Made by a program: the position numbers. A DNA stretch of 64,000 nt from Octopus sinensis (Eukaryota), in contig NW_021830031.1 in the NCBI RefSeq assembly GCF_006345805.1, positions 237,493 to 301,492 of the forward strand, given 5' to 3'. Each line of letters begins with the position of its first letter. Position 1 is the stretch's first letter. Shown here piece by piece: positions 15,339 to 24,300 of the stretch.

Positions 15339-18300
15339 TGTGTCTGTGTTTGTCCGTGTAACTTAGCGGTTCGGCAATAGAGGCCGATAAAATAAGTTCT
15401 AGGCTTACAAAGAATAAGTCCTGGGGTCGATTTGCTCGACTAAAGGTGATACTCCAGCATGGCCACAGTCAAATGACTGAAACAAATGAAAGAATAAAAG
15501 AACATAGATAGTTACACAGAGGCATGTTTTAATACATATACGGGGCTTTTGTCCACTTTCACACTTTAAGTAGGGGCTTTTGTCCGTACCTCTGTTCAGG
15601 ACCCCCAGCTATCAAGATAGCTATTTCTTTACAGCCCACAAGGGGCTAAACACAGAAGGGACAAACAAGGACAGACATAGGTATTAAGTCGATTACATCG
15701 ACCCCAGTGCGTAACTGGTACTTAATTTATCGACCCCGAAACGATGAAAGGCAAAGTCGACCTCGGCGGAATTTGAACCCATAACGTAACGGCAGACGAA
15801 ATACAGCTACGCATTTCGCCCGGCGTGCTAACGTTTCTGCCAGCTCGCCGCCTTAAAAACACATCAAGATAGCACCCCCCCCAGTTGCAATCGGCTGGCT
15901 ACGTGGCTGCCTGCTACCCAGCAGCCAGTAAACACTGCCGCTAGTGTTGCTGCTGATAAGTAAGTGATTCACCATACTCCCTATGTTGGTGACGTCACTT
16001 GTCTTAGACGTTTACTTTACACAATGGTAAGAACATATATTTACCATTCAACATACAATGTCTATAAAAACTTTTAAATAATTGATTTAAAGATATTAAA
16101 AATATTTTAAACTAGAAAATGTAAGGATTGAATATCTTGACAATATAGCAGGTAATTAAATGTGATTGGAATAAATAATTTACACATCAGTGGGTGTAAC
16201 ATTAACTTGTGTTAATAAAGTCTGTGGTAAAGAGGCAAAAATTATCGCTTCTCGGCCTTTTGGCTAAGATCAAAGTGTAGTATCTGTTCTTATCAGCTTA
16301 ATATCTGATACGGTCCCTATTTGGGACCATCGATATTAAACTGATTTTTAGAACGAGGCGAAGAGTTAGGGGCTTGCTCCGCCTTTGCCACGGGTTGGCC
16401 TGGTATTGCAGTGCTTCCAGGATTCAGCCCATCTCCCACCCGGGAGATACAAATAAATAATAATGTCAGATATGTTATTACAGCCCCTCCCCTCAATTTT
16501 TTTTTTTTTTTCTTCATCATCGCAGCGGGTTTTCCGTTATCTATCGTTGCTAAAAAGACCTTCCTCGCCGTTAGCAAGCGATTCACGTTCGATCCCGCCT
16601 CAACCCATTTCCTTCCTCTTTGCTTTCTCATTTCAAATCCCGTCATCGCTTTCACACCACCGCCTGCCAGCTTCAGTGTCTTTAGAGGGGACCCTTTTTT
16701 CTTCTAAGCCCCACACGGCTTCGGCAGAAGGTAATGGGCGAAGCTTCTGCTGACTCTTTCGCCACAACTTCCTCTCACTCTTTCCTCTTGCAGCTCACCT
16801 GCAATGAACCGGCGTCCTATCCAGGTAAGGAACCTATATGCCAAGGAAGAGACGGAAATACATACTGGCGTTTATTGTGATTTAAAAACCTCCCACCCGT
16901 GACAATCGCATTTGCTATTTTCTCCCAGAGACTATGCTCGTAAGTAGTTATGGTGTCAGATACCAGAATTCCTACCAATTGAGCCTGTCTGTTAGCTGCT
17001 ATTTCTACTTGGTTGATAGATAGGGAATGTCACTTCTTTCGTGCACCCACATTGTTTGCAACTATTATACTTACCTGGCACAGATTTTTCCTCGGATTAC
17101 GTCGGATTATTTTACGCTGTAAGCTGTTATGTTAGTTCATTCTGTTTGTTCTGGATTTACACGTAGAATTTTTGGATTATTATCTTGTGGAACAAAGTAA
17201 TTTTCGCCCTTCGGAGTAGAAAATTTCTTTTTATATATGAACTATTAACTCAGTGTGGAATTAACTTTTATCTTGTCACTTGAATTTTAATATGGATCTT
17301 GAAAGCAAAAGGATACAAAGGAGAAACAAAGTTTTTCGGAAGCTGTTGGAGGCAATGTTATAGAACTGGAAGTAGCAATGGGGGAACTCTTCCAGTTCAG
17401 AAAGTTAATACAAAGGAATGGAGAAGAAACAAGATTAATACCGCCCCCTGAAACTTTACAAGCAATCCGTGAGAAGACGGTAATTTACAAAGTGTATAAC
17501 ATTAAAGAGAAAAAAATAGCGGATGTAAAAAATGAATTGGTAGAACGTTGTATGGCGCCAATTTGGAATAAGGTTCGCTATGTTGGCCGAGGAGTGAGAA
17601 GCGCTACGATAGAAGCGCATTTCGAGTCGGCTAGCATAGCGAAGGAAATTTCAACACAAACGTTGAAAAGTGAAGACATCCTGTTGCTGCCCACTTACTT
17701 AGGCCGCAGCACAGCCAAAGTAACAATAGAGGACATACCAAGAGGTTACGATGTAATGTGGGCAGCAACAGCAGTCATATTTGACGTAGAGGAGAAATTG
17801 AACATTTTAAACATGAGGATGAAAGAGGCGAAATTTTGGAAAGGCCAGCAGCTTGAAATGATCATTCAAGCGGACAACGCAACGCTGGAGAGTTTGCCAG
17901 TCAGGGTGTTCGTGGGGGATGGATACACTATGCGGGTATCGGTGGAGGGACGTAGGCCCAGATGTTTCAAATGTGGACAGAAGGGTCACGTTCGCTCAGA
18001 ATGCAAAAAGGAAAAAAAAACGTTAATGCCCACCCTTCAAACCGCTGTGGAGAAAACAAAGCAGACATCACAGCAACAACAAAAGAGAACACCCGGAAAA
18101 AGCAAACTGAAAGTCAAAAGGAGGAAAAGAAAATGAATGGAAAACGAAACGAAAACGAAAAGGTGGAAAATAATTTATCAAATGGAAAAGAACTGGAAGT
18201 AATGGAATATACGACTGTAACCAACAAAAGGAAGAAATCCATACCCCGGACTCCCCACCCCAAACAAAAAGAAAAACAAACGCAGAAGAACAACACAAAA

Positions 18301-21300: not shown

Positions 21301-24300
21301 GACATCTCTGGTTTCACCTGGCGGGTGATAAGGTGTGGAGTTCGCTGGCAGATAAATTCTTCCCGCGACCGGACTCTATGGAGAGATTTAAACCCGGTTT
21401 CATTAAAAGACGGAATCTGACTTTATGGCAGAAGGAGTGTCGACAGGCACTCTGGCTGATCCACAAGATAGGCAAAGCCGGCAGCGGGAATACAACCTCG
21501 ACATTTTATAGATGGATGGTAGAGGCAAAAAATGACGGCATCTTAGGAGGGGCTCTGGGGTTCGATGAGGATCAACTATCCAACCTGTTTAAGAAGACTT
21601 TCAGGCCGGGGTATTTGGATAATTACCAAAAATCCCTGACTTGGCAGTGCTATAGGAATGCTCTACCTGTTCGCGATAAGTTATATAGGCATGGAATGTC
21701 AGTGCCACCGACATGTCCAAGATGTGGGTTGGACAATGAAACCGTTCAGCACGCTTTTGTACATTGTCAGGAGCTGTCAGGCTTAATAAGTTACGTAGAA
21801 CACGTGTTGTCACATCTGGGACGAGTACAGCTATCGGCTGGTTCTATGATTAAGATGATACCGCCAGCTGGACTCTCAAAGGAAGGTGAGGCTTGTTTTC
21901 ACTGTACGGTGTCAGTACTGAAAGAGTGTGTGTGGATAACTAGAATGGCAAGTTTGGTGACAGGATCCTTTGTCTCTGGATATGGTATGTTAAAATACTT
22001 CAGATACCATCTGAAGAGCAAGATGGATTTGGAGAAGAGGAACCTGACACAGAAAAAGTATGTGAATCGATGGAAGGATGTGATAAAAAAGGTGGGTGTG
22101 AGTAACCCTGCTTGGTCATCATGAAAGGTGAAAATAGTCTCTGGGCTCTTAGGCTGTCGAGTAAGAATATTTACTGTGATATACCTATCTGGCCAAAATT
22201 ATTTTAAATTAAAAAAAAAAAAGGAGTAAAGTAAAGTCTAGAATTGTAATCAATAATCAACATATGTAAATATCAAATGAATAACATAAACTTTTTGTAA
22301 TTATGTTTTGTATTGTAATGTCCTATCTCTGTAACGATTTTTATAATCATAATAAAGATTTTATACTTTGTAGTAGTAAATGGGAAATGCAGTTTCACCG
22401 TAACTTTGCTTGGCACCTGAGACTGGTGTGAAAGATAGAGAGGGAAAAGTATACTTAACATGGAGACCTGAATCGACTGCTTAGAAGAAAAAAGGGTCCC
22501 CTCTAAAGGTACTGAAGCTGGCAGGCGGTGGTGTGAAAGCGATGACGGGATTTGACATGAGAAAGCAAAGAGGAAGGAAATGGGTTGAGGCGGGATCGAA
22601 CGTGAATCGCTTGCTGACGGCGAGGAAGGTCTTTTTAGCAACGATCGGAAAACCCGCTGCGATGATGAAAAAAAAAAAAAAGGGGAGGGGCTGTAATAAC
22701 ATATCTGACATTATTATTCATTTGTATCTCCATGGTGGGAGTTGGGCTGAATCCTGGAAGCACTGCAATACCAGGCCAACCCGTGGCAAAGGCGGAGCAA
22801 GCCCCTAACTCTTCGCCTCGTCCTAAAAATCAGTTTAATATCGATGGTCCCAAATAGGGACCGTATCAGATATTAAGCTGATAAGAACAGATACTACACT
22901 TTGATCTTAGCCAAAAGGCCGAGAAGCGATAATTTTGACCTCTTTACCACAGACTATATTTACAAAGTTAATGTTACACCCACTGATGTGTAAATTATTT
23001 ATTCCAATCACATTTAATTACCTGCTATATTGTCAAGATATTCAATCCTTACATTTTCTAGTTTAAAATATTTTTAATATCTTTAAATCAATTATTTTAA
23101 AGTTTATATAGATATTGTATGTTGAATGGTAAATATACGTTCTTACCATTGTGTAAAGTAAACGTCTAAGACAAGTGACGTCGCCAAGCTAGGGGGGCTG
23201 GGCGAATCACTCATCAGCAGTGTGGGCTATTGACTGGCTGCTGGGTAGCAGGTCACACTGCATGAATCTGACTGACCTCTGACCAGAGCGTTCAATCCTC
23301 AATTAGTGCATCTTACATTCAAGTCATATTTATAGACCAATAATAAATATCTATTTCAGCGACACCGCTACGGAAAATGGGATTTTTGTCTAGCGGTGTC
23401 AAATGAAATTGTCACCCATAATTATAACCCTAGTATCGATCTATTGCATTTCAATCTATTTTAGGGTTAGATTTAGGGTTAGAGGTGGGGAAGGGTATCT
23501 TTTTTTCTTAGCAAATGTAAATACACCCAATCTGTTTCTGAGGGACATATTCATACAGCACGGAATGTTTTCACCCCAAATAGAGGTGAGCGATTGGTTA
23601 AAATTGCCGAAATGCTCGAAATTAAAGTCGAAATATGTTATTTTCTCAATAAAGCCAAGAAAAAATGATGTTTTATAAACACTGAAAACTGCCGTTCAAA
23701 AGGAAAAGATCCACGGATTTTAGTATGCCTCCCCACAGAAGACGTACAGTCCACCAGACACGCTTCTGCGTAGATTTCGTCACTCACATCTCTGACTCCA
23801 TCTGGGAAGTGGAAAGGCAAACATGTTTCGGTCTTTCGTAGACATCTTCAGTGAAACATAAGGATATGAGATGTTTTGGCGCCAACTATTTGGCATCGTT
23901 GATTCGACGCTGGCTTATTTGACATCAAACGTTTTTACATTTTTTTCTCTGTCTCTCCTTTTTTCCCTGTTTATGTGTGTGAGCATACTATTCTTTATGT
24001 GCATGGAGAGAAAAAATGTGCTTATGTCAGTTGTGTTCGCACCCTTTCCATCTGAATGTGTATATTTCTGTGGAAACATGCGTATGTGAGTGCTTGCCCC
24101 CGAGCGCCCAGAAGTACTGTCGCTAAACACACTTGGTGTCCAGTCAGCTACAACAAATCGTCTGTACCTAAACAGCTCTGCCTTGTCGCTTCATTCCGGA
24201 AGCATAAACTTCAGAGACTTTGCTGAAGTAGTAATGAGAAAATCTGTTGTAATTAGAACTGTTAATGTCTCTACTGAATTCTCAGTTAATGCAATCGCAT

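What the first reader, a model, noticed from the sequence alone, without database searches (positions are those of the whole stretch)
15910..23252. Tx1-like retrotransposon caged between two convergent U2 snRNA genes in inverted repeats
Seen: two intact U2 genes, each with ~330 bp upstream and ~270 bp downstream flank, form ~800-bp inverted arms. Both would be transcribed toward a 5.8-kb interior that is almost entirely one Tx1/L1-clade element. The arms differ by substitutions and indels, arguing against a simple assembly echo. Known: Tx1-clade families are often target-specific for multicopy small-RNA loci (Keno for U2, Mutsu for 5S, Dewa for tRNA spacers), but Keno and the unrelated Utopia insert inside U2, whereas both U2 copies here are uninterrupted. 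Inference: either a Tx1 family targeting the spacer of an inverted U2 pair (left U2 read-through giving sense RNA, right U2 giving antisense), or a composite U2-LINE-U2 cassette that can flip by recombination between arms.
Basis: partly seen in the sequence, partly recalled or inferred. Interest (0 to 1): 0.85.

Follow-up and report, generated by a model that had tools for sequence, protein, structure and literature searches.

The report
Dead LINE between two U2 genes
A decayed L1/Tx1-type jumping gene lies in the gap between two facing copies of the U2 spliceosomal RNA gene in an octopus-like genome; it looks striking but is most simply a local gene duplication plus an ordinary insertion.

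Summary
The anatomy is real. Two full-length U2 snRNA genes (16244-16437 +, 22737-22930 -; Rfam 185 and 183 bits) sit in inverted arms 15910-16709 and 23252-22479. The arm core is 97.3% identical, and both arms stop at the same base, 272 and 258 nt 3' of U2. The 5769-nt interior holds one near full-length non-LTR retrotransposon on the + strand: ORF1 with a CCHC knuckle, and ORF2 with APE, RT and zf-RVT domains. The closest solved structure is human L1 ORF2p.

This copy is dead. ORF2 has two frameshifts and two in-frame stops, and ORF1 has a frameshift at its start. An A12 run with a sharp GC drop puts the likely 3' end at 22222, 256 nt short of the right arm. The 5' end lies somewhere in 16710-17292. 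I found no significant target-site duplication, ribozyme or second copy in the window.

Tx1-clade membership and target specificity could not be tested, because no eukaryotic genome collection or reference LINE set was available. Keno or Utopia membership is excluded, since neither U2 is interrupted.

Most likely this is an inverted local duplication of a 0.8-kb U2 gene unit with a LINE inserted in the short spacer, about 4.5 kb upstream of an ETFA gene in an octopod. Interest is low to moderate.

The parts
15910..16709 (+). Left arm: a complete U2 gene unit, with 334 nt upstream (including a TGACGTCA palindrome near -250), U2, a T15 run and 272 nt downstream
   Evidence: blastn; alignment
16244..16437 (+). 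U2 snRNA gene, full length
   Evidence: Rfam RF00004, 185.1 bits, model 1-192/192
16710..17291 (+). Unassigned 582 nt: either the LINE 5' UTR or old spacer. It holds splice-site-like motifs and a 14-mer identical to what I recall as the 5' end of U1 (17067-17080)
   Evidence: No homology to the right inner flank. No Rfam hit at E<=1. The 14-mer is unique, with 0.02 expected by chance
17292..18136 (+). LINE ORF1 with a CCHC zinc knuckle. The start ATG at 17292 is out of frame with the body, which begins at 17303 (frameshift lesion)
   Evidence: Pfam zf-CCHC 2.5e-05; relative P0242 at 66% identity begins MEFELSSK; frames
18754..22124 (+). LINE ORF2: APE 18754-19593, RT about 20243-20975, zf-RVT about 21630-21773. 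It is broken by frameshifts near 19575-19590 and 20410-20450 and by stops at 19775 and 19895
   Evidence: Pfam; tblastn against P0001, P0003 and P0005 covers residues 5-1117 of 1148 in three frames; stops
22125..22222 (+). LINE 3' UTR ending in an A12 run (22211-22222). This is the probable 3' end of the element
   Evidence: Only 9 A-runs of >=11 nt in 64 kb. GC falls from 41% to 17% right after the run
22223..22478 (.). AT-rich 256 nt between the A12 run and the right arm. Probably residual spacer, not LINE
   Evidence: Composition; no other copy in the window; no homology to 16710-17291
22479..23252 (-). Right arm: the second U2 gene unit, inverted
22737..22930 (-). U2 snRNA gene, full length, 2 differences from the left copy
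   Evidence: Rfam 183.3 bits

Best explanation
A 0.8-kb U2 gene unit (promoter region, U2, about 270 nt of 3' flank) exists here as a convergent inverted pair. The pair was produced by a local inverted duplication, or by two family members kept alike by gene conversion. The arms were originally separated by a short spacer of at most about 840 nt. A near full-length L1-group (L1/Tx1-type) LINE retrotransposed into that spacer in the same orientation as the left U2. It has since decayed into a dead copy.

Both arms 'end at the same base' simply because that base is the end of the duplicated segment.

The two U2 genes look intact and may be expressed. The LINE has no function here beyond widening the spacer, which would tend to stabilise a long inverted repeat.

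Shown: the anatomy, the lesions, and the lack of junction signatures. Inferred: the order of events, chance placement, and U2 activity.
For: - Two full-length U2 genes sit in arms that are 97.3% identical in the core.
- The LINE carries 5 disabling lesions: 2 frameshifts and 2 stops in ORF2, and 1 frameshift at the ORF1 start.
- An A12 run lies 87-98 nt after the ORF2 stop. There are only 9 such A-runs in 64 kb, so roughly 0.05 are expected in a 350-nt stretch (my arithmetic). GC drops from 41% to 17% immediately after the run. Both point to a 3' end at 22222, not at the arm.
- The inner flanks 16710-17291 and 22223-22478 share no homology in either orientation, as expected for a unique spacer.
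- Neither the LINE nor the arms have another copy in the window.
- No protein above 56% identity to the RT part appears among the 120 best listed in either length band. This gives no sign of a large young family in the databases searched.
- A published Octopus vulgaris repeat table lists 13 recently active L1-Tx1 families with 421 recent insertions (PMC13282606, passage seen). Such LINEs are therefore common in octopod DNA, and one lying next to a U2 gene is not unexpected.
- The window is also dense in SINE copies.
Against: - No convincing target-site duplication defines an ordinary insertion. The best candidate is 10/12 at 17189-17200 against 22223-22234. That is 1 hit against a mean of 0.6 in 200 random windows.
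- Arm identity stays at about 97% right up to the last inner base, whereas the outer 80 nt have decayed to 72.5%. A plain old duplication would not predict that asymmetry. It would fit a younger breakpoint exactly at the inner ends.
- Before the insertion the spacer was short, so the LINE landed in a target of at most 840 nt between two U2 genes. That is only unremarkable once the scan's selection bias is allowed for.
- The copy number and genomic distribution of the family are unknown.
Confidence: 0.6

Rival explanations
1. Site-specific insertion. The element belongs to a Tx1-type lineage whose endonuclease nicks one strand at a fixed site about 270 nt 3' of U2 units. In a convergent pair the two sites give nicks on opposite strands with 3'-OH ends facing each other. 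One primes first-strand cDNA and the other primes the second strand. The LINE then replaces the old spacer as a target-site deletion, and both arms end at the identical base.
For: - Both arms end at exactly the same nucleotide with no decay of identity towards it.
- There is no TSD, as expected for a deletion-type insertion.
- Many Tx1-clade families are target-specific, including for U2 (PMC4494074 and PMC4640811, passages seen).
- The LINE is in sense orientation to the left U2.
Against: - The model needs the element to run from 16710 to 22478. The A12 run and the GC break put the 3' end at 22222.
- Identical arm ends are equally what any two-copy duplication gives.
- Tx1 membership is untested.
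- No second copy is available to test the idea.
- No 5' ribozyme or other co-transcription device was found at E<=1.
Confidence: 0.1
2. Palindrome-centre repair. The U2 units first formed a long inverted repeat with little or no spacer. Such structures break at the centre. The break was healed by capture of LINE cDNA plus filler DNA (endonuclease-independent insertion), and only the widened, stable version survived.
For: - Arm ends are abrupt and symmetrical.
- There is no TSD.
- The interior has unassigned DNA on both sides of the LINE.
- That short-spacer inverted repeats are fragile is general knowledge, not tested here.
Against: - The element is near full length with a 3' A-run, whereas break-capture insertions are often truncated (recalled, not tested).
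- Nothing in the window shows that a spacer-less ancestor ever existed.
Confidence: 0.12
3. Functional cassette. The arms drive inversion of the interior as a flip switch, or convergent U2 read-through makes sense and antisense LINE RNA for small-RNA silencing.
For: Arms of 0.8 kb at 95-97% identity could in principle support inversion by homologous recombination. The convergent geometry is real.
Against: - No recombinase gene or other intact ORF lies in the interior.
- No TSD flanks the cassette (read).
- The LINE is decayed.
- Any inverted repeat has this potential.
- No expression data or long reads could be consulted.
Confidence: 0.04
4. Assembly artefact: a false inverted duplication created during assembly.
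For: Inverted duplications are a known class of long-read assembly error (general knowledge).
Against: The arms differ by 38 substitutions and 5 indel events in total. Each is bounded by unique, unrelated DNA. The window contains no N.
Confidence: 0.04

Closest known systems
L1-Tx1 LINEs of coleoid cephalopods (RepeatMasker class 'LINE/L1-Tx1')
   Same: Two-ORF non-LTR element: ORF1 with a CCHC knuckle, ORF2 with APE + RT + zf-RVT of about 1120-1150 aa. The best named relative is from Argonauta hians, 52% identity. This class is reported as abundant and recently active in octopus (PMC13282606 and PMC8967140, passages).
   Different: This copy is dead. The nearest protein in the searched sets is only 55-56% identical. 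Clade placement against Tx1 and L1 references was not possible.
Keno (Tx1 clade, U2-specific)
   Same: APE-type LINE physically associated with U2 genes.
   Different: Keno inserts inside the U2 coding sequence at a fixed site (PMC4494074 and PMC4640811, passages). Here both U2 genes are uninterrupted, and the element lies at least 272 nt downstream.
Utopia (U2-specific, restriction-like endonuclease)
   Same: Associated with U2 genes.
   Different: Utopia encodes a PD-(D/E)xK endonuclease and sits inside U2 (PMC4640811, passages). This element has an APE endonuclease and sits outside U2.
SINEU / snRNA-headed retroposons mobilised by Tx1 (Kojima 2015)
   Same: Links Tx1-type machinery with U1/U2 sequences. 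A U2 gene immediately upstream of a sense LINE is the kind of locus where a read-through chimera could arise.
   Different: The arms here are complete genes with 330 nt of upstream sequence, not retroposed heads. No chimera is seen.
R2-type co-transcribed site-specific LINEs
   Different: No HDV-like or other ribozyme is detected at the 5' side. The endonuclease is APE-type, not restriction-like.

Membership tests
U2 spliceosomal RNA gene (Rfam RF00004) | Full-length match to the covariance model above the gathering score | tested here: met
   185.1 and 183.3 bits against a gathering score of 46, model 1-192/192, both copies
U2 spliceosomal RNA gene (Rfam RF00004) | Functional gene context: upstream snRNA promoter element and 3' box | not tested
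   The upstream 254 nt and the first about 60 nt downstream are conserved between arms. Promoter and 3'-box motifs are only recalled, and no model for them was run.
L1-group non-LTR retrotransposon | ORF2 with an N-terminal APE endonuclease followed by an RT | tested here: met
   PF03372 2.3e-08; PF00078 1.4e-20; a YADD motif is present; human L1 ORF2p is the best PDB match at 1.2e-25
L1-group non-LTR retrotransposon | C-terminal Cys-rich domain and an ORF1 nucleic-acid-binding protein | tested here: met
   PF13966 zf-RVT 3.6e-10; ORF1 zf-CCHC 2.5e-05
L1-group non-LTR retrotransposon | 3' poly(A) and flanking target-site duplication | tested here: inconclusive
   An A12 run lies at 22211-22222. 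No TSD rises above chance.
Tx1 clade | RT domain groups with Tx1 references rather than L1 in a phylogeny | not testable with these tools
   No labelled Tx1, Keno, Mutsu or Dewa sequences could be obtained. Atlas names were only 'hypothetical protein'.
Tx1 clade, target-specific family | Many independent copies at the same target sequence | not testable with these tools
   There is one copy in the window. Genome contigs holds prokaryotes only, and the two scans gave nothing usable.
Keno | Insertion inside the U2 coding sequence at the fixed Keno site | tested here: not met
   Both U2 genes are continuous over the whole model
Utopia | Restriction-like (PD-(D/E)xK) endonuclease and insertion inside U2 | tested here: not met
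   The endonuclease is APE-type. U2 is uninterrupted.
Co-transcribed LINE with 5' self-cleaving ribozyme (R2-like) | HDV-like ribozyme at the 5' junction | tested here: not met
   No ribozyme family at E<=1 in 12000-27000. The fold of 16700-16860 has z = -1.1. Rfam models may miss divergent ribozymes.
Composite or foldback DNA transposon, or invertible switch | TSD flanking the whole cassette, and a transposase or recombinase gene | tested here: not met
   The outer flanks ...GTGGCTGC and GTCACACT... share no direct repeat. The only interior ORFs with a Pfam domain are the LINE's own.

The most novel reading that the evidence does not exclude
The element represents an undescribed Tx1-type lineage. 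It is aimed not at the U2 coding sequence (as Keno and Utopia are) but at a fixed site about 270 nt downstream in the U2 gene unit. This copy was integrated by using two endonuclease nicks, one in each unit of a convergent U2 pair, as the two priming ends. That would explain why both arms stop at the identical base with undiminished identity. Read-through from the left U2 promoter would then supply sense element RNA.
Probability: 0.08. Interest if true: 0.65.

Novelty: new member of a known kind. Interest (0 to 1): 0.25.

Why it matters
If the arrangement is a chance insertion next to a duplicated U2 gene, it matters little. It is one more decayed LINE copy and one more example of snRNA gene duplication.

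It would matter if the family proved to home to the 3' flank of U2 units. That would add a third, mechanistically different way of exploiting U2 loci, sparing the host gene instead of disrupting it. It would also give a natural case of a site-specific nickase generating both priming ends from an inverted target pair.

The locus is also the kind of place where U2-headed retroposons (SINEU-like) could be born. A census of the family in the source genome would settle all of this.

Tried and rejected
**Target-site duplication**
- Shared 8- and 9-mers between 16600-17420 and 22100-22520: 1 nine-mer and 8 eight-mers. I estimate about 5 eight-mers by chance.
- Mismatch-tolerant search for the post-A12 sequence: 1 hit (10/12) against a mean of 0.6 in 200 random windows. 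Not significant.

**Homology beyond the arm ends**
- Local alignment of 16710-17291 with 22223-22478, direct and inverted, scored within the range of shuffles.

**Ribozyme or other RNA at the 5' junction**
- Rfam at E<=1 over 12000-27000 found only the two U2 genes and sub-threshold miRNA-like matches in microsatellite DNA.
- The fold of 16700-16860 was unremarkable.

**U1 fragment**
- The 14-mer at 17067-17080 is unique, but there is no U1 match in Rfam.
- It is equally the complement of a consensus 5' splice site.

**Other copies**
- None of the arms or the LINE in the window.
- Genome-contig scan with the RT fragment: 30 pattern matches, 0 confirmed.
- Scan with a 52-nt U2 stretch: 2 contaminant contigs in MAG records (L001, L002). 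Their U2 genes are about 80% identical and their flanks are unrelated, so they are not the same taxon.

**Clade naming**
- The atlas returned only 'hypothetical protein' clusters.
- Of the 120 hits listed in each, the few that carry a name have no LINE-clade label.

**Composite-transposon reading**
- No TSD outside the arms.

**Literature**
- Searches found no report of a LINE between inverted U2 genes or of a Tx1 family aimed at U2 flanks.
- Christensen et al. 2000 (PMC85248) is not held.

**Not attempted**
- No structure prediction or complex prediction was run. They would not bear on the question.
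Full report
**What is there**

Rfam at gathering thresholds finds exactly two matches in the 64-kb window. Both are full-length U2 snRNA genes: 16244-16437 on the + strand (185.1 bits) and 22737-22930 on the - strand (183.3 bits). They point towards each other.

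blastn of the region against the window pairs 15910-16709 with 23252-22479 at 92.6% over 801 columns, gaps included. The repeat finder reports three collinear inverted blocks of 96-98%.

A MAFFT alignment split by segment gives:
- outer 80 nt: 72.5% identity
- upstream core 15990-16243: 96.4%
- U2: 192 of 194
- downstream 16438-16709: 96.9%, with two indels of 8 and 6 nt
- the 720-nt core overall: 97.3% (19 substitutions, 3 indel events)

Homology stops abruptly at the same base in both arms (...TTTTTTCTTCTAAGC). That 15-mer occurs only at these two places in the window, even with 2 mismatches allowed.

**The interior**

The 5769 nt between the arms carry one non-LTR retrotransposon on the + strand.

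- ORF1 (17303-18136 as an open frame) has a CCHC zinc knuckle (Pfam 2.5e-05).
- ORF2 starts at ATG 18754 (MIKLGCINVRGL...) and ends at the stop at 22124. It carries an APE-type endonuclease (PF03372), a reverse transcriptase (PF00078, YADD present) and zf-RVT (PF13966).
- tblastn with three intact relatives aligns residues 5-1117 of a 1148-aa protein across the region. The coding capacity is therefore nearly full length, but it lies in three different frames.

The disabling lesions are:
- frameshifts near 19575-19590 and 20410-20450
- in-frame stops at 19775 and 19895
- a frameshift at the ORF1 start. The closest ORF1 relative (P0242, 66% identity) begins MEFELSSK about 23 residues upstream of our open frame. 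This matches ATG 17292 (MDLESK), which is in another frame.

That makes at least five lesions. This copy is dead.

**Ends of the element**

An A12 run at 22211-22222 lies 87-98 nt after the ORF2 stop. The window has only 9 A-runs of 11 nt or more. GC falls from 41% to 17% in the next 100 nt. I therefore place the 3' end at 22222 and treat the AT-rich 256 nt up to the right arm as non-LINE spacer.

The 5' end lies somewhere between 16710 and 17292 and cannot be fixed from one copy.

No target-site duplication stands out. Exact shared 8- and 9-mers are at chance level (the expectation is my arithmetic). The best mismatch-tolerant candidate is GGAACAAAGTAA at 17189-17200 against GGAGTAAAGTAA at 22223. 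That is one hit where random windows give 0.6 on average.

The two inner flanks share no homology in either orientation.

**What kind of LINE**

- The closest solved structure is human L1 ORF2p (1.2e-25), ahead of R2 proteins (about 1e-13).
- Among longer proteins, the best hits to the RT part are 44-47% identical.
- Among proteins of similar length, the best are 55-56% identical and unnamed. The best named one is from the octopod Argonauta hians at 52%.
- Passages in two papers list 'L1-Tx1' among the abundant coleoid LINE classes. One Octopus vulgaris table gives 13 recently active L1-Tx1 families with 421 recent insertions, plus small 'U' and 'U-L1' SINE classes (PMC13282606; PMC8967140).

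L1-group membership is therefore shown. 'Tx1' is plausible but untested, because I had no labelled Tx1 or L1 reference sequences, and the atlas returned only 'hypothetical protein' clusters.

Keno and Utopia are excluded as identities. According to the passages I read, both insert inside the U2 coding sequence, and Utopia has a restriction-like endonuclease (PMC4494074; PMC4640811). Here both U2 genes are uninterrupted, and the endonuclease is APE-type.

**Context**

The window is from an octopod. Exons of the ETFA gene (electron transfer flavoprotein alpha) lie on the + strand from 27758 to about 56764. Taken one by one, most match the Octopus vulgaris ETFA protein at 84-100%. Two alignments that run past exon ends score 71-72%.

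The U2-LINE-U2 block is therefore intergenic, about 4.5 kb upstream of the first ETFA coding exon. The window is crowded with an interspersed SINE-like repeat; self-comparison covers its copies about 20-fold. One copy ends 55 nt from the left arm.

*Target specificity.* This needs other copies, and none could be reached.
- There is no second copy in the window.
- The only open contig collection holds prokaryotic genomes. A scan with the RT fragment confirmed 0 of 30 pattern matches.
- A scan with a 52-nt U2 stretch returned two contaminant contigs. Their U2 genes are about 80% identical and their flanks unrelated.

*Co-transcription from U2.* Rfam at E<=1 shows no ribozyme or other RNA family at the 5' side. 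The junction region folds no better than shuffles (z = -1.1).

*Mobile or invertible cassette.* No TSD lies outside the arms. The only interior ORFs with a Pfam domain are the LINE's own.

**Interpretation**

The simplest account is a convergent pair of 0.8-kb U2 gene units. It arose by local inverted duplication, or from two family members kept alike by conversion. The short spacer (at most about 840 nt) received an ordinary LINE insertion that has since decayed. The shared arm end is then just the end of the duplicated segment. LINEs of this class are common in octopod genomes, and a scan picks out the odd-looking cases, so such a neighbour is not improbable.

One feature is left unexplained. 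Identity is undiminished up to the last inner base, while the outer 80 nt have decayed to 72.5%. That asymmetry is what a younger breakpoint exactly at the inner ends would give. It keeps two rivals alive:
- a site-specific lineage whose single-strand nick at the same site in both convergent units supplied the two priming ends, with the spacer deleted and no TSD
- repair of a broken palindrome centre by captured LINE cDNA

The first rival requires the element to reach 22478, which the A12 run and GC break argue against.

**Literature**

Four full-text searches found no report of a LINE lying between inverted U2 genes, or of a Tx1 family aimed at U2 flanks.
- PMC4494074: I saw the listing, abstract, passages and the Discussion.
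- PMC4640811, PMC13282606 and PMC8967140: I saw the listing and passages only.
- Kojima and Fujiwara 2004 is known to me only through those passages.
- PMC85248 is not held.
- The supplementary figures of the Kojima papers, which show junction sequences, were not seen and could bear on what Tx1 3' ends look like.

**Verdict**

The evidence at hand points to a dead L1/Tx1-type copy in the spacer of a duplicated U2 gene pair. It is a new member of known kinds, of low to moderate interest, unless a genome-wide census shows that the family homes to U2 flanks.

Noticed in passing
window 17067-17080 (+): ATACTTACCTGGCA matches what I recall as the first 14 nt of U1 snRNA. It is equally the complement of a perfect 5' splice site on the - strand. 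It is unique in the window (0.02 expected by chance), and Rfam finds no U1 there.
   Followed up: partly
window 16725-16945 (+): There is a run of strong splice-site-like motifs just inside the left arm: AAG|GTAATG, ...TTGCAG|, CAG|GTAAGG, ...TCCCAG|, CTC|GTAAGT. They would bound mini-exons of only 12-29 nt, so this is probably chance.
   Followed up: no
window 27758-56764 (+): An ETFA gene (electron transfer flavoprotein alpha) has about 10 exons here. Exon by exon, most are 84-100% identical to the Octopus vulgaris protein. This places the window in an octopod close to, but not the same as, O. vulgaris. The U2-LINE-U2 block lies about 4.5 kb upstream of its first coding exon.
   Followed up: partly
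window 15621-15855 and many other sites (e.g. 5980-6447, 30308-30674, 37322-37554, 47611-48046, 60847-61660): A SINE-like interspersed repeat occurs many times in 64 kb; self-comparison covers its copies about 20-fold. One copy ends 55 nt from the left arm. At 61117-61603 it forms a 184-nt tandem of 2.6 units.
   Followed up: partly
window 16497-16511 and 16560-16600 (both arms): The conserved 3' flank of U2 has a T15/T14 run 60 nt after the gene and a tRNA B-box-like GTTCGATCCCGCC. ARAGORN and Rfam report no tRNA there. The origin of this 270-nt flank is unknown.
   Followed up: partly
window 24548-24850: A 20-nt tandem repeat (CAGAACGGACAAAGCCGGAA, about 15 copies, with a 60-nt higher-order period) lies 1.3 kb beyond the right arm.
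   Followed up: no
window 15910-15989 vs 23252-23182: The outer 80 nt of the arms are only 72.5% identical, after a perfectly shared 20-mer (CCTGCTACCCAGCAGCCAGT). The adjoining core is 97%. This step change suggests gene conversion or selection limited to the core.
   Followed up: partly
L001 (contig in a bacterial MAG record), 1-3241: This contig is filed under a bacterial MAG, but it carries a eukaryotic U2 gene amid ten tRNA genes. It is evidently eukaryotic contamination.
   Followed up: no
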